50,038 nucleotides of DNA from assembly GCA_002361365.1 (NCBI GenBank), contig DEST01000090.1, positions 1 through 50,038 of the forward strand. The letters run 5' to 3'. The first letter of the stretch is position 1; every line of letters starts with the position of its first letter. The translations under genes were made by a program, and so were the position numbers. The notes beneath the pieces are model-generated. The model ran no database searches. It saw only the letters and a program-made list of their open reading frames with translations, and had not been told where the DNA came from. Positions 25,686-49,553 of the stretch are shown piece by piece. The stretch is from Alphaproteobacteria bacterium UBA3307 (GTDB lineage Bacteria; Pseudomonadota; Alphaproteobacteria; RF32; CAG-239).

Positions 25686-25766
25686 ACCTCTTTTTTTTGT
25701 TGAAGGTTATAAATAAAAGGATTATATTATATTTATTGATAATTATTTTTGGCGGGAGTTATTTGT

Positions 25767-30124: not shown

Positions 30125-30194
30125 AATTTCTTGAAAATATACAATTCCGTATTATATCTTTTTGTACCATCATTTTTTACAGAAAGGAGTTGTT

Positions 30195-30410: not shown

Positions 30411-30438
30411 TTACTTGAAAAATTTTTGTATGGTTAAT

Positions 30439-33021: not shown

Positions 33022-33040
33022 ATAAGCCAGTCCTTACTAC

Positions 33041-35041: not shown

Positions 35042-35148
35042 TTTTCCCTCAAAAACTCTCAAATTACTGGTAAAATTAGCCGATTTATGTGGTAAATTCA
35101 AGCAAAAACCGGCATTCATAAACAAAAATATAAAGTAGAATTTTTTTG

Positions 35149-35816: not shown

Positions 35817-36024
35817 ATTATACCAAATTTTTATCTCGCCGTTATTTCCGGGAGTATGCCGCTTTCAACCGACGTGTTCACAATATATGATTGAGGCGAT
35901 AAAAATACACGGCATTATTAAAGGAATTTGGCTGGGATTTAAGCGAATCTGCCGTTGTCACCCGTGGGGAGGCTCCGGATACGATGCGGTTCCGCCTAAA
36001 GAAATACGGCATAAGTCAAGTTAA
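35788..36024 (+). CDS. yidD: Membrane protein insertion efficiency factor YidD
   Basis: [35 protein letters not shown]...[17 protein letters not shown] is the YidD signature. Start set at ATG 35788, which overlaps the end of rnpA. The upstream part of track ORF 35596.. is out-of-frame overlap with rnpA. Confidence 0.88.
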
Positions 36025-36091: not shown

Positions 36092-37765
36092 ATGAATGAA
36101 GATTTAAAAGGTTTATATGCCGCAATCGTACTTTCTGCATTTGTGGTTTTGGGCATGAATTATTTTTTTCCGAAACCAACAAAGCAAACTACAACAACCG
36201 CAGAAGAAGTTGTAATTACTCCGGCGATTGATGCAAATAGTGTTGACGAAACTGCCGATAAGGCCGAAGAAAAATCACTTCTCACCGCAGAAATTTTGCC
36301 ACAAGACGCGCGTTTACCCATTAAAAATGCGGTTTTACAAGGTTCTGTACGCCTTAAAGGAGCGCGTTTAGATAACCTGTTGCTGACAAAATATCACGAA
36401 ACAATAGAACCGGAAAGTCAGAATGTTACTTTATTTGCTCCTTCTAAAACGGCGGAGGCATATTTTGCCGAATACGGTTGGCTCAGTACGGATAAATCAC
36501 TTAATTTACCAAACGCCGATACTTTATGGAAAGCGGAAGGTAATACCGAGTTGACGCCTCAGACACCGGTTACCCTTGTATGGGAAAACGGGCAAGGTTT
36601 GAAATTTGTAAATAAATTGACGCTTGATGAAAATTATTTGTTTGGACTTGAGCAAACGGTTGAAAATAATTCCGGCAGAGCTGTAACATTGTTGCCATAC
36701 GGTTTATTTTCTAAATCCATTGATGAAAGTTCAAAATCTCGCGGAGTGGTTCACGAAGGCTTTGTCGGAGTTCTTAATGGCAAACTCAAGGAAATTCGCT
36801 ATAGCGATATGAAAGAAAATCCGCAAGAGTTTACAACTACCGGTGGGTGGGTTTCTTTTGCCGACAAATATTGGTTCGGTTCGTTTGTGTTTGCAGATAA
36901 CGCAGATACAAGAGTCAATTTGCGCAAAGTCAAAAACGGAGTGTATCAACTCGATTATAAAGGCACACCATTACAATTGCAAACAGGTGAAAGCACAACC
37001 ATAAATACAAAACTTTATGCCGGTGCCAAAGAAATAAAACTACTGGATAAATATGCCGAAAATATTAAAAAGTTTGACCTTAACATCGATTTTGGCTGGT
37101 ATTATTTTCTGACTAAGCCGTTTTTCTATATTTTGGATTTTCTGTATGGTTTAATCGGAAATATGGGCTGGGCAATTCTGCTGTTTGCGGCAATTTTGCG
37201 ACTTTCTATGTTTCCACTGGCTCACAAATCATACGATAATATGTCAAAGATGAAGAAAGTACAGCCGAAAATTATGGCCTTGCAAGCAATGTATAAAGAT
37301 GATAAAATGGCGTTGCAACGTGCCACAATGGAGCTTTATAAGCGCGAAAAAGTTAATCCGGCTGCCGGTTGTTTGCCGATGTTTTTGCAAATTCCTATTT
37401 TCTTTTCGTTGTTTAAGGTGTTAAATATTGCCATAGAAATTCGTCATGCACCGTTTATCGGTTGGGTTAAAGACCTTTCCGCACCGGACCCGCTGACGAT
37501 TTCTACTTGGGCGCATATTTATATCCCTTCGGCAATAGATATCGGTGTATGGCCGCTGATTTATGGATTGACTATGTTTATTCAAAATCAGCTTAATCCT
37601 AAACCGGCCAACAAAGACCAAGCTCGGATGTTTGCGCTGATGCCGATTTTATTTACAATTATGTTTGCACATTTTGCTGTCGGATTAGTGATTTACTGGA
37701 TTTTAAACAACATTCTGTCGCTTATTCAGCAAAAAATCATAATGTATAAAAACGGAGTAAAATAA
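36092..37765 (+). CDS. yidC: Membrane protein insertase YidC
   Basis: N-terminal TM, a large periplasmic domain, then the conserved 60-kDa IMP core (GWAILLFAAILRLSMFPLAHKSY...AAGCLPMFLQIPIFFSLF). Confidence 0.93.
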   Translation: MNEDLKGLYAAIVLSAFVVLGMNYFFPKPTKQTTTTAEEVVITPAIDANSVDETADKAEEKSLLTAEILPQDARLPIKNAVLQGSVRLKGARLDNLLLTKYHETIEPESQNVTLFAPSKTAEAYFAEYGWLSTDKSLNLPNADTLWKAEGNTELTPQTPVTLVWENGQGLKFVNKLTLDENYLFGLEQTVENNSGRAVTLLPYGLFSKSIDESSKSRGVVHEGFVGVLNGKLKEIRYSDMKENPQEFTTTGGWVSFADKYWFGSFVFADNADTRVNLRKVKNGVYQLDYKGTPLQLQTGESTTINTKLYAGAKEIKLLDKYAENIKKFDLNIDFGWYYFLTKPFFYILDFLYGLIGNMGWAILLFAAILRLSMFPLAHKSYDNMSKMKKVQPKIMALQAMYKDDKMALQRATMELYKREKVNPAAGCLPMFLQIPIFFSLFKVLNIAIEIRHAPFIGWVKDLSAPDPLTISTWAHIYIPSAIDIGVWPLIYGLTMFIQNQLNPKPANKDQARMFALMPILFTIMFAHFAVGLVIYWILNNILSLIQQKIIMYKNGVK

Positions 37766-38415
37766 TGGCAGAAAAATTCAGCACAGAAGAAATTAAAATC
37801 GCTGAGAAGCAGTTTACGCGCCCGATAAATTTTATGCTGAGTGTAGCACATTTAGAACAATTGCCTGATGATAGATATCCTGAAATTGCGTTTGCCGGAC
37901 GTTCCAATGTGGGAAAATCCAGCCTTATAAATGCACTGTTTAATCAAAAAAAACTGGCAAAAACATCTTCCACTCCTGGACGTACGCAACAACTAAATTT
38001 TTTTAATTTTGATGACAAGCTGTTTTTGGTTGATATGCCGGGGTATGGATATGCCGAAGCACCGGAAAAACTCGTAAAACAATGGCAAGCCATTTTAAAA
38101 ACCTATTTGCGCGGACGACCGAATTTACGTCGGGTTTTTGTGCTGATTGATGCTCGACACGGTATAAAAAAAGAAGATTTAGAAATTATGAAATTGCTTG
38201 ATGAATCGGCAGTTTCGTACCAAATTATCCTAACCAAGATTGATAAGATTTCCGGTATGGAATTAAATAAAACAGTGACAAAAATTGCCGTAGAGATTGC
38301 CAAACACGCGGCTGCTTTACCGGATATGATTGTCACCAGTTCGGAACAAAAAATCGGGCTGGAATTACTTAAAGCTGAAATCTGTTCGTTTATGCAAATT
38401 ACTAAATGTTCTTAA
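37765..38415 (+). CDS. engB: Ribosome-biogenesis GTPase EngB/YihA
   Basis: G1 GRSNVGKSS, G3 DMPGYG, G4 TKIDK. The start overlaps the yidC stop by 1 nt. Confidence 0.92.
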   Translation: MAEKFSTEEIKIAEKQFTRPINFMLSVAHLEQLPDDRYPEIAFAGRSNVGKSSLINALFNQKKLAKTSSTPGRTQQLNFFNFDDKLFLVDMPGYGYAEAPEKLVKQWQAILKTYLRGRPNLRRVFVLIDARHGIKKEDLEIMKLLDESAVSYQIILTKIDKISGMELNKTVTKIAVEIAKHAAALPDMIVTSSEQKIGLELLKAEICSFMQITKCS

Positions 38416-39560
38416 ATAGAGCACTTTGTCGAAGCATTATTGTTTCCGCGGCTATCAAGCACAACATCTATTATGGCAAAAATAGAATAAATCTGACTGA
38501 CGACATCTCGTATTTTGTGATAACTTAGTGCAGGTGTAAACAATGAGGTGGTTTCAAACATATCTTTGCGAGTATGAATTGCAATCAGGAGTTTGTTGTC
38601 CCAGAAACTGAAATCAATATGTTTACCGTGAAACAAGCGTTTTATCTCCAGCATTTTTTCCATAAACAATGGCGTCAAAATATAGCGAGCCTCAACCTGA
38701 TTATCGGTTAGAACTTTCCATTTTTTTATAAATAGCAATCCCTCAAGCTTTACTTTTTGGGTTGCTTTTTTGGGGTTATAGCGGCGATAAACCAAATATA
38801 TTACACCGATAATAAACAGAGGAAATAATATCGGAACCCACGCAAACAGCAAACTAAAAGGCACTCCCGGTTCCGTAAAATAGTAATAATATATCAAAAA
38901 TGACGGACTTAACAAAAAAACTAAAACCATCATCAATAGCGGATTATTCCATAATAAATTAAGGTTTCTGCCACGATTTAAGGCGATTGTTTTACCTCGA
39001 TTTTTTTGAGGCAGTTCCAGCATTATCATTACTCCGCTAAAAATATTGGTTTCACCGCGATTGCCGTGAATTTTAAGATTCTGCTCCGATATTTTTATAT
39101 TGGTGCCGCGATATTCTCCCTTAAACGAATCGTCAACGTCAGAACGATTAAAATACGAAAATAATTCTGCCCGCTTGATGGTATCCGGTCCGATTATATC
39201 AGAGCCGCAATAAGTAAACTTACCCCAAAAAGATATAAGCTTTTTCATTACTTTGCACTTGGTCGTGTTACGGTATTGTAAAAACGGCATATACAACATA
39301 ATTACAAAAAATATTACAGCTACTGTAGAAATTAGGGAAAACCATTGTTCATATGTGTTATCCGCTGTAAGAATATTAAATTGAAACAACAGTAGCACAA
39401 TCAGAATCGTTGCAAACAGAGCAAATAATGTTTTGAATAATTGGCGCAAACAGGTGTGCCGTTCTTGTTCTAATTCTTGATATAATGATTGCAAACTTGT
39501 TTTATAAAAGTCGTAAAACTTTTGTTGTGTTGAGGCCAGTTCTACATTAACTTTTTTCAT
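38412..39560 (-). CDS. Multi-pass membrane protein, tentatively DUF3137-like; last gene of the VirB10/VirB11 operon
   Basis: 382 aa with two pairs of TM helices flanking soluble segments. My assignment of motif-level resemblance to DUF3137 (FSGVMIMLELP...; LLIAIHTRKDMFE) is from memory only. It begins 18 nt after the virB11 stop. No Walker motifs, so it is not VirD4. Confidence 0.5.
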   Translation of the reverse strand: MKKVNVELASTQQKFYDFYKTSLQSLYQELEQERHTCLRQLFKTLFALFATILIVLLLFQFNILTADNTYEQWFSLISTVAVIFFVIMLYMPFLQYRNTTKCKVMKKLISFWGKFTYCGSDIIGPDTIKRAELFSYFNRSDVDDSFKGEYRGTNIKISEQNLKIHGNRGETNIFSGVMIMLELPQKNRGKTIALNRGRNLNLLWNNPLLMMVLVFLLSPSFLIYYYYFTEPGVPFSLLFAWVPILFPLFIIGVIYLVYRRYNPKKATQKVKLEGLLFIKKWKVLTDNQVEARYILTPLFMEKMLEIKRLFHGKHIDFSFWDNKLLIAIHTRKDMFETTSLFTPALSYHKIRDVVSQIYSIFAIIDVVLDSRGNNNASTKCSI

Positions 39561-39578: not shown

Positions 39579-40553
39579 TCACGTTACTTCCGTTATGGCG
39601 CGTTGGTTTCCCAAACGTTGAATCTGCACCACATGCAACTTGCGCCGCATCTCATCGAGTGTTTGCTCAACGTTTACAGCACCGTTGGTAGAAGCCATAA
39701 TACGTTTTATAAATTGCAGATAGGCCTCTTGCGAACTTTCCGCGTGAATGGTGGCAAAACAGTTGTCATGGCCGGAACCCATAAGCTGCCAAATACCGCT
39801 GGCGTTACTGGTTGAAATTTCGCCGCCGATAATTGCATCCGGCGTAAAACGTACGACCAAGTCGATGATGCCGGAGTAGCTAATGTCGTTGGTTTGATTG
39901 GTACGTGACATCACGAGGTGAACACGATTCGGATGCGGAACAATCAACTCTCGTGTATCTTCAACCGTAATAATTCGTTTATGAATATCCAAAATTTTCA
40001 GCAAATTATTTAAAAAAGTTGTTTTACCGGTTGATGTTGCGCCGGACACCAAAATGTGTTCACCTCGCTTTATATACAGAAGCAGACGTTCATAAGCATC
40101 ATCCGGAACCTTAATATCCTTAAGCGGATTCAGCTTTTGGAGCGCTTGCCCCTGTTTCATTCCGTAATCTTCGAGACCGAAAGCAACGTCATCGGAATGC
40201 AGACGAATTGCCAGAGCGATACCGCCTGTCAAATCTTCTTCATCATACATAACGTTTTTCCCGCAGATTGCGGAAAATCGATGGTCTCCCGGTATGGTGG
40301 CATACACAAACGGAGACCCCTGAATCGGATCAAACTCTAACTCATAGGTATTTGCAATTATGTAGAGTAAATCCGTCAGATATTCTTTAGAAAGTTTTTC
40401 GTCTTTATACATAACCCACGGATAAGCACGTTTACCACGCATTCGGAGCCAAATTTGGCCCGCACGATTGATGGCGACCTCTTCGAGGTTATCTTGATTA
40501 TACCAATAGGATAAAGGTCTTAATACTGATTCCAATACTGAAAAATCACTCAT
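39579..40553 (-). CDS. virB11: VirB11-type type IV secretion traffic ATPase
   Basis: Walker A GATSTGKTT, Asp box RIITVEDTRELIV, RFTPDAIIGGEIS (compare the RPDRIIvGEvR motif), and His box GHDNCFATIHAESSQEA. Start set at ATG 40553 with a GGAGGAAGG RBS, 10 nt after the stop of the upstream gene. Confidence 0.88.
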   Translation of the reverse strand: MSDFSVLESVLRPLSYWYNQDNLEEVAINRAGQIWLRMRGKRAYPWVMYKDEKLSKEYLTDLLYIIANTYELEFDPIQGSPFVYATIPGDHRFSAICGKNVMYDEEDLTGGIALAIRLHSDDVAFGLEDYGMKQGQALQKLNPLKDIKVPDDAYERLLLYIKRGEHILVSGATSTGKTTFLNNLLKILDIHKRIITVEDTRELIVPHPNRVHLVMSRTNQTNDISYSGIIDLVVRFTPDAIIGGEISTSNASGIWQLMGSGHDNCFATIHAESSQEAYLQFIKRIMASTNGAVNVEQTLDEMRRKLHVVQIQRLGNQRAITEVT

Positions 40554-40563
40554 CGCCTTCCTC

Positions 40564-43500
40564 CTATAACAACTCCGGCACATCACTCGATTCACCGCCG
40601 TCCATAGATGGTAACGGTTGGTCCGAGCTTGGAGCAACATAGCCTGCCGGATTTTGGTTTACATTACTTGTCGGCGCCGGTGTACGTGTCGGTACGGCAG
40701 CCGGATTACCTTGCGGAGCGCTCGCCGGTTGAACATTTTGATAATTACCGTTATAAGTAACACCTCCGCTGTCTGATGGGCTTCTGCTTTCTTCATCAGG
40801 ATCCAATAATCCGCCTTTTCCATCAAAATCTCTGCCACCGGAACCTGAACTGCTGATTCGTTTTGAGCGCTCACGGCTGTTGAGCCACAAATCTTCATTA
40901 GGATAGATAATAATGCGTGTACCGGCCGGAACATAAGTTACCGAGCGAATTTTTTCTTTATCTTCTATCATTTCCTTTAAAATTTCTTTCATTTGCTCAT
41001 TAAAATTCTTACGCCCGTCCGACATTGCCTGACTACGAGCATCGGCTGTGGTAGTACTGGTACCATCGCTACTTACTGAAGTTGTAGAGTTTCCTCCTGA
41101 AGCTAAAAGCCAGTTGGCAGCAGTTTGCAAGGTAGTTGTAACCAGCGGTAACGAATATTTTTTAAGCAATTGCTGGTCCAAATAACCGATAGCGCCGGCA
41201 CGACCTTGAGCATCGGCTGTTTGAGCATCACTAAAGCGCCATTGTGAACCATCCGGACGAATAAGTCTGGTCCAAGTGATACCGATTTTGGCAGCTCCGC
41301 CGTTATTGGCATTGACACCGCCGCCGGAATCGACTTCACCAATAACACGTGAACCTGCCGGAATTATCACGTTTCGACCTTCTTCGGCATAAACGTTGCG
41401 TTCCACAATAGCAGTAACCGGAATTTTCTGGCTCAGACTATCCGAAGCATAAACCGAGCGTGCCAAAACTGCCGGAATACCCTTATCTTGTAAAATCATC
41501 TCGCTCATATCTACACGCCATGAAGATATCTGATTAGGACTTGGTCCACCATCCCAACCATCTTTTTCGTATCCGGTAAAAGCGGCGACTTCCGCATCAT
41601 TATTACTAGGGTCTGCCGGTAGCTCTCCCATTCCGAGAGAATTACGCCTATTGTTTTGCGCCGCCATCAATGCCTGAGCTCGCAGTGGGTCATAGCGTTC
41701 ACCCTGACCATACCCGCCACCGGCTCCGACATTGGTCGGACGCTCGCCATGTCCATACGGATTACCCGTACCGTATGCATTTGGCGGAATAAACATTTCG
41801 CTTGCAGATGGTCGTCTTATTTCTTCAAAACCTATGAGATTATGGTTTACATCGACAACATTACCATCTTGGTCAACATAACCTTTTAAATCTCCATTAT
41901 CATCACGAACTGTACCATCATCATAAATATTTCCTATAATATCACCTTCCGGATTAAGAGCAATTCCGACAATTCTATTGCCAAGTTTTTGACGTTTAAC
42001 TTTAGTTTCACTAACCGTTGATGGTTGGGTAGTTTGAGTTTGAGGTTGAGATTGCTCCGTTTCAGCATCTGCAATCGTAGGACGTCGGCGTGGTTTATAT
42101 TCCGGTTCAGCTTCGGCAGTGGTTTTCGGCACATAAATATAATATTGATATGGGGTGGCCAAGGCAATTTCGTTGCCGTCAGCATTGCGAATAATTCCGG
42201 TTTCCGTTAAATATCCGATGTTTTGTCCCTCAAAATCTGTAACAGTACCGTCTAACTGCAACACGCCAACCGGATTTTGACTGACATCACGGACAATGTA
42301 ATCGCGGTTACCTCGTGCAATTACCTGTCCGCTACGGTCGGTTACAAAACCGCGGTCAAGTTGCCCCAATCTGCTACCGACAGGGCTCAGAACGGTGCCA
42401 TCTTTAGTCAGGTATCCGTATGTGGAAAAGTTTTCGTCATACACATAAAAATCATAAAGTGCGTAACCGATATTTTCTCCATTAGCCTGAACGCTACCAT
42501 CAAAATTAACCTCACCGACAGGTTTGCCGGCTTCGTTAATCACCATACCGCCGGCACTGACCATACCCAAAAACTTGTTGGCATCGGTGTACGCTACCTG
42601 ATAACGCATAACATTACCCAGCACTTTTTTAGATTTAGAAACAACGTTTCCATTCGGCTGCATATATCCGACAAGCTGGCTATCTGCTCCGAAAACTTGT
42701 CCGTTTGCCGCCACATTACCAATGATTTTATTTTCAAAATCAATTACCGGAGCCGGAATTATAACACCATATTGTTGAGCTTTTGTTTGGTTTAAAATCA
42801 GACCTTCACGGTTGACGCAACCCAATGATTTTCCTTCAAAATCCGTACCAAATCCGGCGTTTACCGTACCAACATAATTACCATTAAAATCTATCAGCCC
42901 GTTTCCTTGCACGGCATAACCGATATAATTACCGGCATCTGATATTGCTTGTCCGTTCGGTAAAAGACGACCGATTATTACATCTCGACTGTTTACAATA
43001 TCTCCTTTACCGTTAACAACACCGATTACTGAGCATTTTTCGTTAACAACCGGTGCAAATGTTATTAGTTTGCCGTTTATTGCGCGATTATTATCAATAA
43101 TATATTCGTTATACACTACCTTACCGTAAATATTGCCATTTAGCCCGATTACAGTGCCGGTCGAATCAGCATAACCAATTAAATCTCCGCCGATATTCAG
43201 TGCTATCATTTTATTGTCGGCAAAACCTTTTAGCGGGCTCATTGCAGCAGATGCTGCATCGTTTGTTTCTACCGCATATCCCGCCGGAACAATTTTATAT
43301 GCAATAGCGTTAGATTTATTCAAAATCAGGTTACTATTGGCAAATCTACCTAATGGATTGCCCTCAAAATCAAGTGCATACATCGGAGTAATCAAAGCTC
43401 CGGCATAACCTTTAGACTCAAGCAATATCCCTGATGGAGTCAGTTTTGCTCCGGTACCTTGACGATAAAGTTCGCCGTTAGGATTGATATACGAATAAAG

Positions 43501-44841
43501 CGTTCCTTCCAAACCATACGCGGCAGAAAGCGGATATCCGCCGCCAAAAACTTTACCATCCGCATTAAATAGATATCCAAACGGTGATATTTTACCACCA
43601 CCGGAGCCGGAAGCAACAGTTGCATCAATATTGTTCATTCCCAAAGGTTGCAATGTGTTATTTATGGCAATCATGCCGCTAGCTACACCGCCGATAAGAG
43701 TTCTGTTATCATCAAATGCATAACGACCTCTGGCATAACCGATTTCACCACCGCTTGTAGATATAATACGCCCATTAGGCAAACTTTGACCTTTAAGATG
43801 AGCCAAAGCATCATAAACCGGTCCGGTTTGTACCAAGGCACCGATTTTATTATTTTGTTCATCATAAACATAGCCTTTTGCACCGATATGGCCTATAATT
43901 TGTCCGCCACGTACAATATTGCCGCCGGGAACAATATAGCCTAAGTATCTGCCAAAATTATCATTCGCAGTAGCTGCTATATTAACGGCAAAACCGACCA
44001 CATCTCCATTGGCACGTACCAAACTGCCGTCTGCCCGATAGCGAGCTACAACACGTTCACCTTGTTTAACTTCGCCATTGTAACTGACAATTCCGATATA
44101 TTTACCTATTTGATCAAAAGCATAACCGGTGGCAATTACACTGCCTATAATCCTGTTTGCCGAATTATAAGCATAACCGTTAGCGTGAATTTTCCCGATT
44201 TCTTTACCTTCAAAATCGACTATTTTTCCACTTGGGGCAATACTGCCTAAAAAGCGCCCGTCTACAGAAACCACCATTTTAGAAGACATCAATCTGCCGT
44301 CTAAAATATACTCATCTCCGGAACGGCGATAAGCATACCCGTTAGCGGAAACAAAGCCGATACGTTGTCCTTCCAATTTGGTATATTCTCCGCCGCCGGT
44401 TAAACGTCCGAGTGCATCACCTTTAGGGGAGTATATCAGCCCCGGATACAAAATAGCACCGATAACTTCTGCAGAATCATCTATTACCAATCCATTTGGT
44501 AAGGCCTTGCCTAAAGTACGTCCGCTCAAGCTACGTACAAAACCGTCAGTATGAACTTTACCGAGTAAGCGGTTGTCCATTCCAATAGCAATACCTTGCG
44601 GCACTACCCCACCGATGACCGCGCCATCTTCATTTATAATCAAGCTGTCTGCTGTAATTGTGCCGATATTATTACCATCTGCGCTTATAACCATACCGGT
44701 TGAAATCACTTGACCGATGATATTGCCGGAAAAATCGATTGCGGTAATTTCTGCGGCCTGAGCCACAGCAACCAAAGATAATAAAATCGCCCAACAAAGC
44801 ACCCACACTTTTTTAATATATCGACTTATGCTGCATCTCAT
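40564..44841 (-). CDS. Giant (1425 aa) VirB10/TrbI-domain protein. Architecture: N-terminal anchor or signal sequence, about 870 aa of 17-residue repeats, a Pro/Gln-rich linker, a VirB10 beta-barrel domain, and a Pro/Ser-rich tail.
   Basis: C-terminal aa ~1105-1320 (nt 40882-41529) read IPAVLARSVYASD...VTAIVERNVYAEEGRNVIIPAGSRVIGEV...ITWTRLIRPDGSQWRF...DAQGRAGAIGYLDQQLL...VTYVPAGTRIIIYPNEDLWL, the classic VirB10/TrbI pattern. The N-terminus is MRCSISRYIKKVWVLCWAILLSLVAVAQA. There is a 2-nt gap to the upstream gene and a 10-nt gap to virB11. Confidence 0.88.
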   Translation of the reverse strand: MRCSISRYIKKVWVLCWAILLSLVAVAQAAEITAIDFSGNIIGQVISTGMVISADGNNIGTITADSLIINEDGAVIGGVVPQGIAIGMDNRLLGKVHTDGFVRSLSGRTLGKALPNGLVIDDSAEVIGAILYPGLIYSPKGDALGRLTGGGEYTKLEGQRIGFVSANGYAYRRSGDEYILDGRLMSSKMVVSVDGRFLGSIAPSGKIVDFEGKEIGKIHANGYAYNSANRIIGSVIATGYAFDQIGKYIGIVSYNGEVKQGERVVARYRADGSLVRANGDVVGFAVNIAATANDNFGRYLGYIVPGGNIVRGGQIIGHIGAKGYVYDEQNNKIGALVQTGPVYDALAHLKGQSLPNGRIISTSGGEIGYARGRYAFDDNRTLIGGVASGMIAINNTLQPLGMNNIDATVASGSGGGKISPFGYLFNADGKVFGGGYPLSAAYGLEGTLYSYINPNGELYRQGTGAKLTPSGILLESKGYAGALITPMYALDFEGNPLGRFANSNLILNKSNAIAYKIVPAGYAVETNDAASAAMSPLKGFADNKMIALNIGGDLIGYADSTGTVIGLNGNIYGKVVYNEYIIDNNRAINGKLITFAPVVNEKCSVIGVVNGKGDIVNSRDVIIGRLLPNGQAISDAGNYIGYAVQGNGLIDFNGNYVGTVNAGFGTDFEGKSLGCVNREGLILNQTKAQQYGVIIPAPVIDFENKIIGNVAANGQVFGADSQLVGYMQPNGNVVSKSKKVLGNVMRYQVAYTDANKFLGMVSAGGMVINEAGKPVGEVNFDGSVQANGENIGYALYDFYVYDENFSTYGYLTKDGTVLSPVGSRLGQLDRGFVTDRSGQVIARGNRDYIVRDVSQNPVGVLQLDGTVTDFEGQNIGYLTETGIIRNADGNEIALATPYQYYIYVPKTTAEAEPEYKPRRRPTIADAETEQSQPQTQTTQPSTVSETKVKRQKLGNRIVGIALNPEGDIIGNIYDDGTVRDDNGDLKGYVDQDGNVVDVNHNLIGFEEIRRPSASEMFIPPNAYGTGNPYGHGERPTNVGAGGGYGQGERYDPLRAQALMAAQNNRRNSLGMGELPADPSNNDAEVAAFTGYEKDGWDGGPSPNQISSWRVDMSEMILQDKGIPAVLARSVYASDSLSQKIPVTAIVERNVYAEEGRNVIIPAGSRVIGEVDSGGGVNANNGGAAKIGITWTRLIRPDGSQWRFSDAQTADAQGRAGAIGYLDQQLLKKYSLPLVTTTLQTAANWLLASGGNSTTSVSSDGTSTTTADARSQAMSDGRKNFNEQMKEILKEMIEDKEKIRSVTYVPAGTRIIIYPNEDLWLNSRERSKRISSSGSGGRDFDGKGGLLDPDEESRSPSDSGGVTYNGNYQNVQPASAPQGNPAAVPTRTPAPTSNVNQNPAGYVAPSSDQPLPSMDGGESSDVPELL
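42142..44751 (-). repeat. Coding tandem array of roughly 50 degenerate 17-residue units (x-G-x-x-[IL]-G-x-[VI]-x3-G-x-[VI]-x3) inside the VirB10-domain gene
   Basis: The first units have an exact 17-aa register: G39, G56, G73, N90, G107, A124 of the protein. The pattern persists with indels to about aa 900. Confidence 0.8.
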
Positions 44842-44843: not shown

Positions 44844-47800
44844 TTAATTCCTCCGGTTGCGCGCCACTTCAGGCAAACTGTAGCCCGAAACATTTTTATC
44901 TGCATCTACAAACGAACCGTTGCTCTTTATGTAGCCGATTTCCTGATTTTCGCCGGAAACAACGCGTCCATTTGCTGACAAGCGTCCTAAATAATCTCCG
45001 TTATTAGAAAGAACTGTATTGCCGATTGTATAAATATGACCTATGATATTATTTTGCTTATCTACAGCAAAACCATCAGTTAATATATGCCCGATAACAC
45101 TACCATTGCGATATACCTTACCATCAAATCCTACCACGCCCTTAACCGTGTCATCATTGCCTATAACAATATCACCGCTCACAACTTCTCCTAAAAACTG
45201 TCCGTCAGTGCTGATGACTTTGCCGTCTGATAACACACGACCTGCATACAGATGCTTGGTATCTGCAAATGTTCCGTCCGGTAAAACAGTTCCGATGATT
45301 TCTCCGGCAGAATCAATTACTATACCGGTTTGTAGCGCCACCAAATTGTTACTGTTACCACCTCCCGGTAGCAAAATCGACAGTATCGCGCCATCGGCAC
45401 CGATGACTGCACCGACATCGTTAGATATTCCGACCGGATTACCAAACACATCAACCATCACACTTTGTGGTAAAACCTCACCCACAACGCGATTTTCATT
45501 CAGCACCAAACCATCAGGAGCTGTGTATCCGGTAACTTCTCCAGCGTTGTATTGTTTACCTTCCGCATTGATTTGCGGTTCAGGTTCAATCACCTCTCCG
45601 GTCGGTACGGCATAACCTAAATATGTGCCGTCATATCCGCGAACTCCTCCCTGACGCACGACTGAGGCAATCAAACGTCCTTGCTCATCAAACATCTGTC
45701 CTTTTACATTGACCTTACCCACATACGTACCTTTATAATCCAACACTCTTAAATCATAGTTTATCTGACCGATGCGTTGTCCGCCAGTATCCACAATATG
45801 TGCCGGACGCACAAATTTTGCCGCCATACCGCCGTAAATTCCAACTTCTCCGCCGTTTATAACATCTACCGGCATACCATTTTCGTCATATACTTTACCG
45901 TCAGGAAACAAATGCCCGATTTTTTGACCGGCTGAATTATATAAAATATTTATCTCCGGAACAGCATAACCTACGATTTTACGATTTTTATCCGCCACAA
46001 GATTACCAAATATCACATGCGCTCCGCTAACATTTTTCAGTTGCGGATTTCCATATTTATCAAAAGTGCCAAGCGGTTTACCATCAAAGCTAAAGGCATA
46101 TTTTGCCGTAGAAATAGAGCCGATATATGCAGAATTTTTATCATATACATCACCATAAGCATTTGCACAGCCTATATAGTCTCCTTTAGAATTTCGCAAC
46201 ATACCGCCAGCCTCTAAAATGCCGAGCGGTTTCCAGCTACGACGCGAAATTACTACTTTTTTGTTGACTAAATGACCTTTAATGCGCGGTTGTTCCAAAT
46301 CTAAGACCGTGCCGTCCGGATTTAAGCAACCAACCTCTTGTCCGTCTGAATCACGCACATACCCATCGGCATTGGCCTCTCCTACATACGAGCATTCTTC
46401 ATCGTATACACTACCTGTTGGCATCACCCGACCGGCAAAAGCACCTTGTCCGGTCCAAACAGTACCATCAGCATAAATGCGATAATCCGTTTCAACGCCA
46501 TCGCGACGAATCACACCGTCTGCATCCAACTTAGTACTGAAATCACAACCCCAGTTGACAATATATCCATAGCGTACGCCTACTGCCAAAATTTTAGCTC
46601 CTGACACATCGGTTACCAACCCGTCCGGTCGCATTTTACCAACAACTTTTTGCTGATTTATGACTTCTCCTCGATTGTTGACTGTTCCTAAAACCGTACC
46701 GGCCGGAGTAATCGGCAACAAACTTTTATCAATCGCAGAGCCGATAATTTTGCGACCAAACGAACGAATATTGCCATTTACGTCTATCAGACCGATAATT
46801 TCTCCCTTAGCATTACGAACCACGCCCTTTGCATCTGCAAAGCCCAAAATTTTTCCGTTTTCATCAAGTCCCAATCTGGCTTTTTCTCCAACTTTGCCAA
46901 TAACGTTGCCATCTTCGTCTACAATATTACCATTCTCATCTACTTTACCGATTCGATTACCATTAAAATCATAAACATTACCGTCTTCGTCAACATAACC
47001 GATTACATTGCCGTCTTCATCTAACGCCAAACGGACGTTACGGCCGACTGTGCCTATAACATTGCCGGCACGGTCTTCAGTAATAACATTTCCGTTTTCA
47101 TCTACCTTGCCGATAACATTACCGTCAAAATCATGAGCAATTCCAAACTTATCAACATATCCGATAGGTTTTCCGTTTTCATCTAATACTACCCTATTTC
47201 CTGTACCGCGATGACCGATAATATTGCCATTAGCATCTACAATGTTGCCATTGGCATCTACACGGCCTATTACATTGCCTTTAAAGTCACGCACAATACC
47301 ATTTTCACCGATAATACCGATAGCATTGCCGTTTTCATCTACTGCAACGGAATCTCCTCCATAACCGATAATATTACCGTTGGTATCGCGAACAATGCCG
47401 TTTTCATCCATCGTTCCGATAATATTGCCATTTAAATCACGCACAACACCATTTTCGTCAACATAACCAATTACATTGCCGTTTTTATCATAAACTCTGT
47501 TATCTGACGAAGCGGCAGTACCTATCACCTTGCCGTCTTTATCTACCACATTTCCGTTTTTATCGACATAGCCGATAATATTGCCGTCTTTATCTCTTAC
47601 TACTTTACCCCCGGCGCCTCGATGGCCGATTACTTTGCCATTGACGTCTAATACTTGGCCGCTCGCGTCTACTCTGCCTATTACATTACCATCAAAGTCG
47701 CGTACTATTCCATCTTCTCCTATAAGACCTATTACTTTGCCATTTTCATCTACAGCTACTGCATCTCCGCTGTAACCGATTATCTTGCCGCTCGCATCTC

Positions 47801-49553
47801 TAACTACGCCGTTTTCATCTGCTCGGCCGATGATGTTACCTTCAAAGTCACGTACTGTCCCGTCTTCTTCTACATACCCAATTACATTGCCGTTCTCGTC
47901 ATACACCAATTTTTTACCATCGGTAAATCCTATTATTTTTCCGTTTTTATCTAACGCCAATTCTGTATCCTTACCGACAGAACCAACAATTTTTTGATTT
48001 GCTGTATTGCCTATAATGTTGCCGTCTTTATCAACATAACCTATGATATTGCCATTAGAATCGTGCACTAAACCATCTTCATCTATATAGCCGATTACAT
48101 TGCCGTTTTCATCTAAGGCCAAATCGTGCCATTCATCACTGACATGGCCGATAATATTGCCGTTTGTATCTACAACATTGCCATCTTTATCTACTTTACC
48201 GATAACATTACCGTTAAAATCGCGAACATTACCGTCTTCATCTACGTAGCCTATAATATTGCCGTTTTCATCATGAACAATCCGTGCTGCCGAACCGCGT
48301 TTGCCTATAATCTGCTTGTCTACCACCGTACCATCTGCGGCAACTTGCCCCACAATATTGCCATCGGCGTCAACCACATCTCCATTTGGCAATACAATAC
48401 CGACGACCTCGCCGTTTTCATTCAAAATCGCCTCACCGGCTTTGGCTACACGGCCAATAACATTTCCGTTTGCATCTACCACTTTTCCGTCTTTATCTAA
48501 TCTGCCGATAATATTGCCATTTAAATCAGTTACCGAGCCATCTTGATTAACCCTACCGATAATATTGCCGCTTGCATCGTACACATAGCCATAATCAGCC
48601 GCTTTGCCGATTACCTGACCATTTTCATCAACTACCGTTCCATCTGCCAGCATTGTACCGATAACATTGCCCTCCATATCATGAGCAACACCGTTTTCAT
48701 CAACATAGCCTATAACATTGCCGCTTTCATCCAAAATCAACTTACCATTACCGGCGACACCGATAATGTTGCCGTCCATATCGACAATCATACCATCATC
48801 ACGCAAACGACCGATTTCTCTGCCCTGAAAATCGCGTACAATACCATTTTCATCCACAATGCCAATAATTTCACCGTTAGGACCATATGCATAACGAGTT
48901 TTACCCTGTGGAGTGGCAGATATACTGTTTTTGCCGCCGTTGGTTTCGCAATAATTACAATCAGAAGGATTAAGTGCCGTACCATAAATTGAAACTTCAT
49001 CGTGCTTAGCACTCGAATCCTGCACGTTAGTTTCGTGCCACACAATTTTAAAGTTACTCTGAACACTTCCCGGCATAGACGGATTCCATTTAATTTTTAC
49101 GCTGCAAGTATTTTTACCGCGTAAATCGCGTTCTTTACAATCAGATTCATAATCAAATTCTGCCGATGCCGGAGCATCTTCAAGCTCTACCGATAAAACA
49201 CGAATTTCTTTGTGTCCATTGGTGCCGATTGTTAAAACACCGGTTGCCTCATTGCCGACAAAAATATTTCCTAGGTGAATTTCTTGAGGAATCATCGTAA
49301 TCGGACGTTCTACCGTACTTGGAGAATCAAACACAATTTCCGATGAATTATCTTGAACATCTTGTACGCCGGTTTTCAGCTCGTCTTGTGTATCGGTTTC
49401 CGGTATATAATGTTCAACCGGCTTTTCTTCTTCCGAGCCGAGCAAAAGCAAGCTGAACAAAAATACGCCCAACGTTACCAAACCGAAAATCATTATGATT
49501 CGGTTGGTTTTGCGTACATATCTGTCAGAATGGGTTAACGGCTCTTTACTCAT
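44844..49553 (-). CDS. Giant (1569 aa) membrane-anchored repeat protein. Architecture: short cytoplasmic N-terminus, TM helix, Ig-like (choice-of-anchor-D/ASH-like) domain, then about 1340 aa of 17-residue G-N-V-I-G-x-V-D-x-D-G-x-V-x-D-x-N repeats.
   Basis: An uninterrupted 4.7-kb ORF. TM helix at aa 18-39 (IIMIFGLVTLGVFLFSLLLLG). Aa 85-195 (HLGNIFVGNEATGVLTIGTNGHKEIRVLSVEL...CSVKIKWNPSMPGSVQSNFKIVW) look like an Ig-like beta-sandwich. The repeats run from aa ~222 to ~1560. It is 3 nt from the upstream gene and 2 nt from the downstream gene. Confidence 0.9.
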   Translation of the reverse strand: MSKEPLTHSDRYVRKTNRIIMIFGLVTLGVFLFSLLLLGSEEEKPVEHYIPETDTQDELKTGVQDVQDNSSEIVFDSPSTVERPITMIPQEIHLGNIFVGNEATGVLTIGTNGHKEIRVLSVELEDAPASAEFDYESDCKERDLRGKNTCSVKIKWNPSMPGSVQSNFKIVWHETNVQDSSAKHDEVSIYGTALNPSDCNYCETNGGKNSISATPQGKTRYAYGPNGEIIGIVDENGIVRDFQGREIGRLRDDGMIVDMDGNIIGVAGNGKLILDESGNVIGYVDENGVAHDMEGNVIGTMLADGTVVDENGQVIGKAADYGYVYDASGNIIGRVNQDGSVTDLNGNIIGRLDKDGKVVDANGNVIGRVAKAGEAILNENGEVVGIVLPNGDVVDADGNIVGQVAADGTVVDKQIIGKRGSAARIVHDENGNIIGYVDEDGNVRDFNGNVIGKVDKDGNVVDTNGNIIGHVSDEWHDLALDENGNVIGYIDEDGLVHDSNGNIIGYVDKDGNIIGNTANQKIVGSVGKDTELALDKNGKIIGFTDGKKLVYDENGNVIGYVEEDGTVRDFEGNIIGRADENGVVRDASGKIIGYSGDAVAVDENGKVIGLIGEDGIVRDFDGNVIGRVDASGQVLDVNGKVIGHRGAGGKVVRDKDGNIIGYVDKNGNVVDKDGKVIGTAASSDNRVYDKNGNVIGYVDENGVVRDLNGNIIGTMDENGIVRDTNGNIIGYGGDSVAVDENGNAIGIIGENGIVRDFKGNVIGRVDANGNIVDANGNIIGHRGTGNRVVLDENGKPIGYVDKFGIAHDFDGNVIGKVDENGNVITEDRAGNVIGTVGRNVRLALDEDGNVIGYVDEDGNVYDFNGNRIGKVDENGNIVDEDGNVIGKVGEKARLGLDENGKILGFADAKGVVRNAKGEIIGLIDVNGNIRSFGRKIIGSAIDKSLLPITPAGTVLGTVNNRGEVINQQKVVGKMRPDGLVTDVSGAKILAVGVRYGYIVNWGCDFSTKLDADGVIRRDGVETDYRIYADGTVWTGQGAFAGRVMPTGSVYDEECSYVGEANADGYVRDSDGQEVGCLNPDGTVLDLEQPRIKGHLVNKKVVISRRSWKPLGILEAGGMLRNSKGDYIGCANAYGDVYDKNSAYIGSISTAKYAFSFDGKPLGTFDKYGNPQLKNVSGAHVIFGNLVADKNRKIVGYAVPEINILYNSAGQKIGHLFPDGKVYDENGMPVDVINGGEVGIYGGMAAKFVRPAHIVDTGGQRIGQINYDLRVLDYKGTYVGKVNVKGQMFDEQGRLIASVVRQGGVRGYDGTYLGYAVPTGEVIEPEPQINAEGKQYNAGEVTGYTAPDGLVLNENRVVGEVLPQSVMVDVFGNPVGISNDVGAVIGADGAILSILLPGGGNSNNLVALQTGIVIDSAGEIIGTVLPDGTFADTKHLYAGRVLSDGKVISTDGQFLGEVVSGDIVIGNDDTVKGVVGFDGKVYRNGSVIGHILTDGFAVDKQNNIIGHIYTIGNTVLSNNGDYLGRLSANGRVVSGENQEIGYIKSNGSFVDADKNVSGYSLPEVARNRRN
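46734..48890 (-). repeat. Highly regular coding repeat array with a 51-nt (17-aa) period; about 43 G-x-[VI]-[IVL]-G cores by my count, with nested higher-order duplications
   Basis: Protein aa 222-940. Core spacing is exactly 17 aa in long stretches (for example G278, G295, G312). A 137-aa super-repeat (aa 550-686 versus 687-823) shares idiosyncratic elements at the same offsets (IGY[SG]GD[AS]VAVDENG; IGHRG[AT]G). Confidence 0.85.

What the first reader, a model, noticed from the sequence alone, without database searches (positions are those of the whole stretch)
40564..44841. VirB10 with an ~870-residue repeat insertion between the inner-membrane anchor and the proline-rich linker and barrel
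Typical VirB10 proteins are about 380-480 aa: a short cytoplasmic tail, a TM helix, a Pro-rich linker and a C-terminal beta-barrel. This ORF keeps each element in order:
- the hydrophobic N-terminus, aa 13-28;
- the Pro/Gln-rich stretch PKTTAEAEPEYKPRRRPTIADAETEQSQPQTQTTQP at aa ~905-940;
- the barrel at aa ~1105-1320.

Between anchor and linker it inserts roughly 50 units of a 17-residue repeat. It adds three near-consensus units (aa 955-1005), a Gly/Tyr/Pro-rich segment, and a ~100-aa Pro/Ser-rich C-terminal tail.

That is far more polypeptide than is needed to span a periplasm. It suggests a large cage or ring, or a surface-exposed structure. The N-terminus could also be a cleavable signal peptide (AQA-AE), which would detach VirB10 from the inner membrane and change its energy-sensing role.
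Basis: partly seen in the sequence, partly recalled or inferred. Interest (0 to 1): 0.8.

Follow-up and report, generated by a model that had tools for sequence, protein, structure and literature searches.

The report
Split giant VirB10 secretion-channel protein
This gene encodes the outer-membrane half of a giant type IV secretion channel protein (VirB10) that, in a group of uncultured gut bacteria, has been split into two genes: this half has swapped its membrane anchor for an export signal, and the anchor now sits on the gene just upstream.

Summary
The ORF is real. It lies on the minus strand (40564..44841) and encodes 1425 aa. Its C-terminus is a true VirB10/TrbI barrel with the two-helix antenna. 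Residues 29-900 form about 49 seventeen-residue beta-hairpins (beta-flower/YD-like). AlphaFold2 predicts this region as one rigid all-beta body (pLDDT 93, pTM 0.91).

It is not an assembly artefact. More than 120 orthologues from independent gut and rumen metagenomes are 1382-1572 aa long. The repeat body has no indels across 49 of them.

The N-terminal hydrophobic segment is a Sec signal peptide, not the inner-membrane anchor. Its h-core has a median of 11 residues, it ends in an AxA site, and the mature end "AEITAIDF" is nearly invariant.

The canonical VirB10 N-terminus sits on the adjacent upstream ORF (44844..49553, 1569 aa). That ORF has a conserved cytoplasmic tail, a TM helix and an Ig-like domain, followed by about 78 hairpins, and is translationally coupled. 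Sister lineages encode both halves as one protein (878-2363 aa) in the same virB8-B7-B8-B9-B10-B11 operon.

The window therefore holds a split giant VirB10 of about 3000 aa in total. It belongs to a chromosomal, Rickettsiales-vir-homolog/ComB-like T4SS of uncultured Alphaproteobacteria. This is a new variant of a known kind. I found no description of it in the literature I searched.

The parts
44758..44841 (-). VirB10-C aa 1-28: Sec-type signal peptide (MRCSISRYIKK / VWVLCWAILLSLVAVAQA | AEITAIDF)
   Evidence: This is the only hydrophobic segment in the protein; KD19 is 2.2, against 2.8-3.1 for true anchors. In 120 orthologues the hydrophobic core has a median of 11 residues. In the 110 N-termini scored, position -1 is Ala in 78 and position -3 is A/V/S/G in 94. 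The mature N-terminus is nearly invariant. Cleavage is inferred; it was not predicted with SignalP or measured.
42142..44757 (-). VirB10-C aa 29-900: rigid all-beta repeat body of about 49 seventeen-residue beta-hairpins (beta-flower / YD-like)
   Evidence: Pfam Bflower_2 1e-48, Bflower and DUF3659. AF2 with 60 orthologues gives pLDDT 92.9, pTM 0.91, 98 strands and no helices of 4 or more residues. There are no indels among 49 orthologues at 52-98% identity. Foldseek finds only local similarity to RHS/teneurin shells (E 4.6e-37, TM 0.10).
41986..42141 (-). aa 901-952: Thr/Pro/Glu/Gln-rich flexible linker
   Evidence: Composition. pLDDT <50 over most of aa 900-951 in the AF2 model.
41818..41985 (-). 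aa 953-1008: three near-consensus hairpins
   Evidence: Six strands with pLDDT >90. Matched by the hairpin-unit HMM.
41530..41817 (-). aa 1009-1104: Gly/Ala/Pro-rich segment with one conserved helix (ERYDP..., aa 1052-1068)
   Evidence: Composition. Mostly low pLDDT, with one helix at model residues 172-188. The G/ERYDP columns are conserved.
40876..41529 (-). aa 1105-1322: VirB10/TrbI beta-barrel domain
   Evidence: Pfam TrbI 110 bits. PDB ComB10 2.4e-19. Foldseek matches to TrwE, CagY, Xanthomonas VirB10, TraF, ComB10, TraB and DotG with TMt 0.55-0.70.
40951..41175 (-). aa 1223-1297: two long helices joined by a Ser/Thr-rich loop, the VirB10 antenna projection (outer-membrane pore element)
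   Evidence: AF2 helices at model residues 343-367 and 388-417. This region aligns with the same part of ComB10.
40564..40875 (-). aa 1323-1425 plus stop codon: disordered Ser/Gly/Pro-rich tail ending in the conserved VPxLL motif
   Evidence: pLDDT <50. Composition. The terminal motif is conserved in alignment A1.
44849..44854 (-). GGAGGA Shine-Dalgarno for VirB10-C, embedded in the last codons (NRRN*) of the upstream ORF; the gap from stop to ATG is 2 nt
   Evidence: Junction sequences of the window and L001-L006. The frame offset differs between loci, so there is no conserved frameshift fusion.
44844..49553 (-). VirB10-N (1569 aa): the upstream, translationally coupled ORF that carries the canonical VirB10 N-terminal module followed by a long array of near-consensus hairpins
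   Evidence: Pfam Bflower_2 1e-106 over 17 stretches; no VirB9 or TrbI domain. Its aa 1-230 align with the N-termini of one-piece VirB10s: P0079 and P0274, P0287, P0303, P0318, P0326 and P0369. It is conserved between virB9 and virB10 in L001-L006, L008 and L009.
49434..49553 (-). VirB10-N aa 1-40: conserved cytoplasmic tail MSKEPLTHSDRYVRKTN plus a 21-residue TM helix (the real inner-membrane anchor)
   Evidence: KD19 is 2.77 at aa 19. The tail is conserved in all loci and as SSSEQY(I/V)KKSNR in one-piece proteins.
48954..49331 (-). VirB10-N aa ~75-200: periplasmic Ig-like (ASH / choice-of-anchor-D-like) domain
   Evidence: Weak Pfam ASH hit (0.0029) and NCBIfam choice_anch_D hit (0.0023). 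Many multi-Ig proteins match aa 65-200.
44889..48878 (-). VirB10-N aa 226-1555: about 78 hairpin units by length (59 detected by a unit HMM); the array length varies between genomes
   Evidence: The ORF is 1102-1576 aa in related loci.
49557..50038 (-). C-terminal end of VirB9 (cut by the window edge), with a SPOR-like domain
   Evidence: SPOR 9e-4. Full-length orthologues have CagX plus SPOR.
39579..40640 (-). VirB11 ATPase; its start overlaps the end of VirB10-C
   Evidence: Pfam T2SSE 1.2e-23 and NCBIfam VirB11 1.5e-42.

Best explanation
ORF 40564..44841 (minus strand) encodes the C-terminal, outer-membrane half ('VirB10-C') of a naturally split giant VirB10. It belongs to a chromosomal type IV secretion system related to the Rickettsiales vir homolog (rvh)/ComB systems, in uncultured gut and rumen Alphaproteobacteria.

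What is shown:
- The C-terminal domain is a true VirB10 barrel with an antenna.
- Residues 29-900 are about 49 beta-hairpins predicted to form one rigid all-beta body of fixed length.
- The gene lies between virB9 and virB11.
- The ORF directly upstream ('VirB10-N') carries the cytoplasmic tail, TM helix and Ig-like domain. In sister lineages that module forms the N-terminus of a single 878-2363-aa VirB10 in the same operon position.
- In a barrel-domain tree the split forms one clade, sister to the one-piece giants.

What is inferred:
1. An ancestral one-piece giant VirB10 underwent gene fission inside its hairpin array.
2. The downstream half acquired a Sec signal peptide. It is exported and cleaved, so it is not anchored in the inner membrane.
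3. Its barrel and antenna join VirB9/VirB7 at the outer membrane.
4. VirB10-N stays anchored in the inner membrane, where the conserved tail can contact the ATPases.
5. The two halves are made in coupled amounts (the SD lies inside the upstream stop region, with a gap of at most 3 nt between the genes, or a start overlapping the stop). They reconnect non-covalently through their hairpin bodies.
6. Together they restore the inner- to outer-membrane bridge and build an enlarged periplasmic scaffold, a third type of 'expanded' T4SS beside Cag and Dot/Icm.
For: VirB10 identity.

Repeat body. Fixed architecture with no indels.

Reproducibility: six GTDB genome loci carry VirB10 ORFs of 1385-1582 aa, and 120 full-length orthologues are 1382-1572 aa. 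There are no high-identity DNA repeats.

Signal peptide.

Upstream ORF homologous to the VirB10 N-terminus:
- P0079 aa 7-215 aligns with VirB10-N aa 6-230 (E 7e-30). Its C-terminus aligns with this barrel at 42% identity (E 5e-55).
- Six further one-piece proteins have the same N-module plus a barrel.
- The P0274 cluster has 141 members.

Synteny: L007 and L011 have virB9 then a one-piece virB10 then virB11, with no extra gene. The split loci have virB9, VirB10-N, VirB10-C, virB11.

Other support:
- NJ tree of the barrel domain.
- Junction, SD and variable frame offset.
- The system is rvh/ComB-like. It has duplicated virB8 flanking a lipoprotein with the KKSP-Cys motif that PMC2653234 describes for Rickettsia VirB7/ComB7. 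ComB10 is the best PDB and NCBIfam hit.
Against: - Signal-peptide cleavage was not predicted with a dedicated tool or measured. The window's own h-region (19 uncharged residues) is the longest in the family and could be borderline for a signal anchor.
- No evidence shows that VirB10-N and VirB10-C bind each other.
- The fission point could not be mapped, because repeat-level similarity swamps positional signal.
- The tree is a single NJ tree without support values.
- All sequences are from metagenomes, and expression is unproven.
Confidence: 0.7

Rival explanations
1. The N-terminal hydrophobic segment is an uncleaved signal anchor, so the protein is a canonical bitopic VirB10 with a repeat insertion. 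The upstream ORF is then just an accessory paralogue.
For: All characterised VirB10 proteins are anchored in the inner membrane (established knowledge; reviews PMC9371333 and PMC6362355, listed). In the window's own copy the uncharged run VWVLCWAILLSLVAVAQAA is 19 residues, with KD19 of 2.2.
Against: - Across orthologues the hydrophobic core has a median of 11 residues. It often contains Pro and is followed by Glu, Lys or Arg before an AxA site, for example ILLLAALLLPFEAQA|AE and ILFLAGVLLPLKGYA|AE.
- The segment is poorly conserved, whereas the next residues are nearly invariant.
- True anchors in the same family score KD19 2.8-3.1.
- The conserved cytoplasmic tail motif is absent here and present on the upstream ORF.
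Confidence: 0.1
2. The fission is real but the halves no longer work as one VirB10. VirB10-C acts only as an outer-membrane/periplasmic core component, so energy coupling from the inner membrane is lost or taken over by other subunits. VirB10-N is an independent inner-membrane scaffold, analogous to DotF.
For: The two arrays evolve differently. VirB10-N is made of near-consensus units and varies from 1102 to 1576 aa. VirB10-C is degenerate and has a fixed length. Dot/Icm core complexes can assemble without DotG, as summarised in PMC9371333.
Against: The two genes are strictly adjacent, translationally coupled and co-conserved in every split locus examined. Both halves retain the same hairpin repeat type, which would suit hairpin-to-hairpin docking (inference).
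Confidence: 0.17
3. The repeat region is a surface-exposed or immune-exposed variable module like the CagY repeats, used for adhesion or antigenic tuning.
For: CagY is the known precedent of a giant repeat-bearing VirB10 (PMC9371333).
Against: - There are no indels, and identity is 45-75% per 50-residue window, across 49 orthologues.
- The gene has no DNA repeats above 77% identity that could drive recombination.
- In all solved VirB10 structures the region N-terminal to the barrel is periplasmic (established knowledge).
- The repeats here are beta-hairpins, not CagY's alpha-helical modules (Delahay 2008 as cited in PMC9371333).
Confidence: 0.02
4. The ORF length or the split is an assembly or sequencing artefact: collapsed or expanded repeats, or a spurious stop or frameshift.
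For: Many metagenomic homologues are truncated at contig ends or at scaffold N-gaps inside the repeats.
Against: - More than 120 full-length orthologues of near-identical length come from independent assemblies, including one at 98% identity and the same 1425 aa.
- Every split locus has its own signal peptide and SD.
- The DNA repeats are diverged.
Confidence: 0.01

Closest known systems
Helicobacter pylori CagY (Cag T4SS VirB10 homologue, 1927 aa)
   Same: A giant VirB10 with a very large repeat region N-terminal to a C-terminal VirB10 barrel and antenna, belonging to an 'expanded' T4SS. The barrel here matches CagY structurally (6x6k/6odi, TMt 0.67-0.70).
   Different: - CagY is one polypeptide. 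Its repeats are alpha-helical modules and vary by recombination (PMC9371333 and abstract 10.64898/2026.08.07.743500).
- Here the repeats are 17-residue beta-hairpins with a fixed length and no indels.
- Here the protein is split into two genes, and the barrel-bearing half has a signal peptide instead of an anchor.
Legionella DotG/IcmE (with DotF) of the Dot/Icm T4SS
   Same: An enlarged VirB10 homologue with an internal repeat region. The system also has a second inner-membrane-anchored periplasmic partner (DotF) in the core complex (PMC9371333). The DotG dome matches the barrel (9ngw/7muq, TMt 0.55-0.61).
   Different: DotG keeps its own N-terminal anchor and has pentapeptide repeats (my recollection, not tested here). 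I did not test whether DotF is related to the VirB10 N-terminal module, whereas VirB10-N here is homologous to that module.
Rickettsiales vir homolog (rvh) T4SS and Helicobacter ComB system
   Same: - Operon order virB8 - small VirB7 lipoprotein - virB8 - virB9 - virB10 - virB11 in related loci.
- The VirB7 candidate carries the '[KI]KSP'-Cys motif reported for Rickettsia VirB7 and ComB7.
- ComB10 is the best PDB and NCBIfam match.
- The locus is chromosomal, among housekeeping genes.
   Different: RvhB10 and ComB10 are not known to carry such repeat arrays and are one-piece anchored proteins (my recollection, not tested here). No virD4 follows virB11 here. VirB9 carries an extra SPOR-like domain.
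Beta-flower fold families (Pfam PF21784/PF21785, clan CL0395; Durairaj et al. 2023, PMC10584680)
   Same: The repeats score far above the Pfam gathering thresholds. They have the hairpin unit with a [DNEQ]xxG tip described in the paper.
   Different: The described beta-flowers are small closed 4-, 5- or 6-petal barrels of about 100 residues, known only from predictions. Here 49 hairpins, plus about 78 in the partner, form very long arrays inside a T4SS subunit.
RHS / YD-repeat shells (Rhs effectors, Tc toxin BC, teneurins)
   Same: These are the best structural hits for the repeat body (8qjd_B E 4.6e-37, probability 0.99). The partner ORF hits RHS_repeat and YD-repeat HMMs.
   Different: Global TM is only about 0.10. 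The strands are 3-5 residues long. Pfam and NCBIfam reported no toxin, protease or other RHS-associated domain.

Membership tests
VirB10 / TrbI family (PF03743) | C-terminal TrbI beta-barrel domain | tested here: met
   Pfam 110 bits against a 35-bit cutoff, aa 1116-1320. PDB ComB10 at 2.4e-19. Foldseek probability 1.0 and TMt 0.55-0.70 to TrwE, CagY, Xanthomonas VirB10, TraF, ComB10, TraB and DotG.
VirB10 / TrbI family (PF03743) | Two-helix antenna projection within the barrel (outer-membrane pore element) | tested here: met
   AF2 helices at aa 1223-1247 and 1268-1297 joined by a Ser/Thr-rich loop. This is a prediction only.
VirB10 / TrbI family (PF03743) | N-terminal cytoplasmic tail plus a single inner-membrane TM helix on the same polypeptide | tested here: not met
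   The N-terminus has the features of a cleavable Sec signal peptide across 120 orthologues. The tail and TM helix are on the upstream ORF 44844..49553. No dedicated predictor was available.
VirB10 / TrbI family (PF03743) | Proline-rich region following the TM helix | tested here: inconclusive
   A disordered T/P/E/Q-rich linker (11% Pro) lies at aa 901-952, before the barrel and after the repeats. It is not adjacent to a TM helix.
VirB10 / TrbI family (PF03743) | Encoded between virB9 and virB11 in a virB-type operon | tested here: met
   VirB11 lies downstream. The C-terminal end of VirB9 (SPOR) lies upstream of VirB10-N. The full operon is present in L001-L011.
NCBIfam equivalogs T4SS_ComB10 (NF038092) / T4SS_VirB10 (NF038091) | Score above the curated cutoff | tested here: not met
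   113 bits against 300, and 83.5 bits against 220. It is a divergent subfamily, not an equivalog of either.
Beta-flower families PF21785 / PF21784 | HMM score above the gathering threshold | tested here: met
   Bflower_2 scores 164 bits against 38, and Bflower 44 bits against 25.
Beta-flower families PF21785 / PF21784 | Hairpins close into discrete 4-, 5- or 6-fold shallow barrels | not testable with these tools
   Only DSSP, pLDDT and pTM are returned for the model, without coordinates. Irregular tight hairpins recur at intervals of roughly 30-130 residues in the DSSP string. That may reflect a modular build but does not establish one.
RHS / YD-repeat shell proteins | Hairpin strip spirals into a closed cocoon that encloses a C-terminal toxin, with plug and protease elements | tested here: not met
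   Similarity is local only (TM about 0.10). No RHS core or toxin domains were found by Pfam or NCBIfam.
CagY-type variable-repeat VirB10 | Alpha-helical repeat modules encoded by near-identical DNA repeats that recombine | tested here: not met
   The model is all-beta. No DNA repeats exceed 77% identity. There are no indels among orthologues.
Rickettsiales vir homolog (rvh)-type T4SS | Duplicated virB8 flanking a VirB7 lipoprotein with the [KI]KSP-Cys motif, followed by virB9-virB10-virB11 | tested here: met
   Seen in related loci L007, L008, L009 and L011, compared with PMC2653234. The window itself ends inside virB9, so this is not visible in the window. Other rvh hallmarks (multiple virB6, duplicated virB4 and virB9, absence of virB5) were not tested.

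The most novel reading that the evidence does not exclude
A natural two-piece VirB10. In this reading the inner-membrane energy-sensing module (tail, TM helix, Ig-like domain) and the outer-membrane gate (barrel and antenna) are separate polypeptides. Each is extended by a very long beta-hairpin (beta-flower-type) array. The two dock non-covalently in the periplasm to form a multi-megadalton scaffold: about 3000 residues per VirB10 unit, multiplied by the roughly 14 copies seen in other T4SSs. This would be a third, independently evolved architecture of 'expanded' T4SS. It would also give the so-far prediction-only beta-flower repeat its first cellular role, as a structural building block of a secretion machine.
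Probability: 0.45. Interest if true: 0.8.

Novelty: new variant of a known kind. Interest (0 to 1): 0.66.

Why it matters
VirB10 is the only T4SS subunit thought to span both membranes. It is held to carry ATP-dependent conformational signals from the inner-membrane ATPases to the outer-membrane pore.

A conserved lineage in which this protein is cut in two offers a natural experiment on whether a covalent link between the membranes is needed. In that lineage the barrel half is exported by Sec without an anchor.

It would also add a beta-hairpin-based 'expanded' T4SS to the two studied ones, Cag (alpha-helical repeats) and Dot/Icm.

It would place the beta-flower repeat, so far described only from predictions, in a defined machine. 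The family is large, with 909 database hits at E<1e-5.

Finally, it points to a chromosomal T4SS of rvh/ComB type in uncultured Alphaproteobacteria from rumen samples and a human (Hadza) gut sample, whose biology is essentially unknown.

Tried and rejected
1. **Translation on the plus strand.** It gave only stops, so the ORF is on the minus strand.

2. **Upstream 1569-aa ORF as a repeat-bearing VirB9.** Rejected. It has no CagX domain. VirB9 is the gene before it.

3. **Word-indexed search with the VirB10-N N-terminus.** It returned only contig-end fragments. The exhaustive representative search was needed to find the one-piece proteins.

4. **Mapping the fission point in one-piece proteins.** I used motifs and junction-flank HMMs. 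It failed because every hairpin block matches everywhere.

5. **Programmed frameshift or readthrough fusing the two ORFs.** Rejected. The frame offset differs among loci, and each downstream ORF has its own signal peptide and SD.

6. **Broken VirB10 calls in L008 and L009.** These are explained by scaffold N-gaps, not by further splits.

7. **Global structural analogue for the repeat body.** None was found in the PDB (TM at most 0.11) or in BFVD (probability below 0.2).

8. **Unit HMM built from the partner's consensus repeats.** It detects only 26 of the roughly 49 units in VirB10-C, because those units are degenerate. The strand count from the model is the better estimate.

9. **Literature searches.** I searched for giant or split VirB10, rumen Alphaproteobacteria T4SS, and RF32 T4SS. 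I found no description.

10. **Other T4SS genes elsewhere in the window.** Pfam scans of 30 further ORFs in 545..35125 plus YidC and EngB found none; the ORFs at 32362..33021 and 35397..36024 were not scanned.

Full report
**1. The observation**

The ORF at 40564..44841 is real. It lies on the minus strand and encodes 1425 aa; the plus-strand translation is full of stops.

- **Barrel.** Pfam places a TrbI/VirB10 domain at aa 1116-1320 (E 1.5e-31, 110 bits against a 35-bit cutoff). NCBIfam ComB10 and VirB10 models match the same region, but below their equivalog cutoffs.
- **Solved structures.** The closest PDB sequences are ComB10 (2bhv, 2.4e-19), TrwE, CagY and Xanthomonas VirB10.
- **C-terminal model.** An AlphaFold2 model of aa 881-1425 was built with 92 homologues. 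It shows the barrel and two long helices, aa 1223-1247 and 1268-1297, which are the antenna. It also shows three well-ordered hairpins at aa 957-1008. The linker (aa 900-951) and the tail (aa 1336-1425) are disordered.
- **Structural matches.** This model matches the VirB10 domains of R388, Cag, Xanthomonas, pKM101, ComB, F and Dot/Icm. Target-normalised TM is 0.55-0.70 at probability 1.0.
- **Repeats.** The 17-residue periodicity is clear: sequence identity autocorrelates at lags 17, 34 and 51.

**2. The repeats**

The repeats belong to the beta-flower families: Bflower_2 at 1e-48, plus Bflower and DUF3659. Durairaj et al. 2023 defined this fold from AlphaFold models only. It is built from short hairpins with a [DNEQ]xxG tip and placed in the Tubby clan (PMC10584680).

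An AF2 model of aa 29-900, built with 60 orthologues, is very confident (mean pLDDT 92.9, pTM 0.91). It is entirely beta, with 98 strands, which is about 49 hairpins alternating 5- and 3-residue strands.

- Such a high pTM for 872 residues argues for one rigid body, not beads on a string.
- Foldseek finds strong local similarity to RHS/YD shells and teneurins (E 4.6e-37), but TM is only about 0.10. Nothing in BFVD matches.
- I had no access to the coordinates, so the global shape is unresolved. The 29 Å rmsd to compact RHS cores argues weakly against a fully extended ribbon; this is an inference.

**3. Not an artefact, and not a variable array**

- Six loci from the GTDB species-representative genome collection are all 'MAG: Alphaproteobacteria bacterium'. 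They come from sheep, goat, yak and roe-deer rumen or forestomach and from Hadza human gut. Five of them carry VirB10 ORFs of 1385-1582 aa.
- A search with aa 1-900 found 909 hits. The best 120 are all full-length at 1382-1572 aa. One is 98% identical and also 1425 aa, annotated by NCBI as 'TrbI/VirB10 family protein'.
- Among 49 orthologues at 52-98% identity, the 872-residue body has no indels and many invariant Gly positions.
- At the DNA level the gene has no repeats above 77% identity.
- This is the opposite of CagY, whose repeats recombine.

**4. The N-terminus is a signal peptide**

In all orthologues the first 25-36 residues share one pattern:

- basic residues at the start;
- a short, poorly conserved hydrophobic core (median 11 residues), often with Pro;
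- frequently a charged residue next, then small residues at -3 and -1. In the 110 N-termini scored, Ala is at -1 in 78.

Directly after this comes a nearly invariant (A)EITAIDF, which is the first strand of the repeat body.

True anchors in the same family score KD19 2.8-3.1, against 2.2 here. The protein has no other hydrophobic segment. Cleavage is inferred, because no SignalP-type tool was available.

**5. Where the anchor went**

The ORF directly upstream (44844..49553, 1569 aa) ends 2 nt before the VirB10 ATG. Its last codons (NRRN*) contain the GGAGGA Shine-Dalgarno for VirB10. Its domains, in order:

- a conserved cytoplasmic tail, MSKEPLTHSDRYVRKTN;
- a 21-residue TM helix;
- an Ig-like domain;
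- about 78 near-consensus hairpins by length, 59 of them detected by a unit HMM.

It has no VirB9 domain. VirB9 (CagX plus a C-terminal SPOR-like domain) is the gene before it and is cut by the window edge.

The same tail-TM-Ig module forms the N-terminus of one-piece VirB10 proteins:

- **P0079 (878 aa).** Its N-terminal 200 residues align with the upstream ORF (E 7e-30). Its C-terminus aligns with the window's barrel at 42% identity (E 5e-55).
- **P0274, P0287, P0303, P0318, P0326 and P0369 (1498-2363 aa).** All have the same N-module and a barrel near the C-terminus. The P0274 cluster has 141 members on many contigs.
- **Operon position.** In L007 and L011 the order is virB8 - virB7 - virB8 - virB9 - one-piece virB10 - virB11, with no extra gene.
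- **Split loci.** These have virB9 - VirB10-N - VirB10-C - virB11.

In an NJ tree of the barrel domain the split proteins form one clade. That clade is sister to the one-piece giants. One-piece P0287 and the shorter VirB10 homologues with an N-terminal TM helix (380-745 aa) branch outside. The tree has no support values.

The simplest reading is a single gene fission inside the hairpin array of an already giant VirB10. The downstream half then gained a signal peptide. The frame offset at the junction differs among loci, so a programmed frameshift fusion is unlikely. The exact fission point could not be mapped.

**6. The system**

Related loci show duplicated virB8 genes flanking a 58-65-aa lipoprotein. 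It has a lipobox and the motif ELK(K/L)SPCAC. This is the [KI]KSP-Cys signature that Gillespie et al. 2009 reported for Rickettsia VirB7 and ComB7. They also found Rickettsia virB7 directly upstream of virB8b (PMC2653234).

The operon is chromosomal:

- It lies beside engB-yidC(-rnpA-rpmH ... dnaN-dnaA) in several genomes.
- In the window, the 32 scanned ORFs outside the T4SS cluster are mostly housekeeping and outer-membrane biogenesis genes: LpxI, LpxB, LptD, LptF/G, SurA, RelA/SpoT and GyrB.
- No virB4, virB6 or virD4 is in the window.

**7. Mechanism**

Shown:

- VirB10 barrel identity and operon position.
- The hairpin body is predicted rigid, and its length is conserved among orthologues.
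- Signal-peptide-like N-terminus.
- Homology of the upstream ORF to the VirB10 N-terminal module, and the coupled gene arrangement.

Inferred:

- VirB10-C is exported by Sec and cleaved. Its barrel and antenna join VirB9/VirB7 at the outer membrane.
- VirB10-N remains in the inner membrane, where its conserved tail can contact the ATPases.
- The two hairpin bodies dock non-covalently. This rebuilds the envelope-spanning VirB10 and enlarges the periplasmic part of the machine.

The two arrays behave differently. VirB10-N is consensus-like and varies in length (1102-1576 aa). VirB10-C is degenerate and fixed in length. This suggests an adjustable inner-membrane-proximal stalk and a specialised outer-membrane-proximal body, but that is speculation.

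**8. Comparison and novelty**

The closest known cases are CagY and DotG, which are giant repeat-bearing VirB10s of expanded T4SSs (PMC9371333). CagY is one polypeptide with alpha-helical repeats; DotG, from my recollection, is also one-piece with pentapeptide repeats.

The barrel half here fails one feature common to characterised VirB10 proteins: an inner-membrane anchor on the same chain. The pair of ORFs together meets it.

The proteins are already in databases as 'TrbI/VirB10 family protein'. I found no paper describing the giant beta-hairpin VirB10 or its split.

**Verdict**

- This is a new variant of a known kind.
- Interest is about 0.66.

Noticed in passing
window 49557..50038 (-); L002 990..2678; L005 1007..2752: The VirB9 homologues of this clade are about twice the usual size (538-594 aa). 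They carry a C-terminal SPOR-like (peptidoglycan-binding) domain after the CagX domain. The window contains only that C-terminal end.
   Followed up: partly
L007 4508..4684; L008 1187..1375; L009 607..798; L011 5491..5688: A 58-65-aa ORF sits between two virB8 genes. In the three copies read (L007, L008, L009) it is a lipoprotein with a lipobox and the motif ELK(K/L)SPCAC. This matches the [KI]KSP-Cys signature reported for Rickettsia VirB7 and Helicobacter/Campylobacter ComB7. The L011 copy was placed by position only.
   Followed up: partly
window 44844..49553 (-) compared with L001-L006, L008, L009: The anchor-bearing partner (VirB10-N) varies from 1102 to 1576 aa between genomes. It is made of near-consensus hairpins, with DNA repeats of 60-77% identity. 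The VirB10-C repeat body has a fixed length. The two arrays seem to be under different constraints.
   Followed up: partly
window 40564..40590 (-), last residues of VirB10: The disordered C-terminal tail ends in a conserved short motif: VPxLL in the split clade, and ...R(L/M)F or ...ELF in one-piece relatives. This may be a docking or targeting signal.
   Followed up: no
window 49503..49553 (-), VirB10-N aa 1-17: The cytoplasmic tail MSKEPLTHSDRYVRKTN is strongly conserved. In one-piece giants it appears as SSSEQY(I/V)KKSNR. It is a candidate contact site for the T4SS ATPases.
   Followed up: no
window 38412..39560 (-): A DUF3137 membrane protein follows virB11 where Rickettsiales have virD4. 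L001 also has an ORF of similar size (403 aa) downstream of virB11; it was not scanned. L002 has a 1355-aa autotransporter there instead (L002 12185..16252).
   Followed up: no
L007 7353..9989 (P0079): One member of the one-piece giant clade is only 878 aa. This implies that the hairpin array can contract as well as expand.
   Followed up: partly
window 36092..38415 (+); L009, L010: The T4SS operon keeps the same chromosomal neighbours (engB, yidC, then rnpA, rpmH, dnaN and dnaA in L010) in different genomes. This suggests vertical inheritance near the replication origin rather than a mobile element.
   Followed up: partly
window 12081..12587 (-); 7662..9221 (+); 28439..30124 (+): An IalB-like (invasion-associated locus B) protein is present. 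Two ORFs of 519 and 561 aa have no Pfam match at E<=1e-5.
   Followed up: no
window 4553..5521 (-) and 5439..6443 (-): The listed DUF805 ORF start overlaps the end of the EF-Ts ORF by about 80 nt. The DUF805 start is probably further downstream.
   Followed up: no
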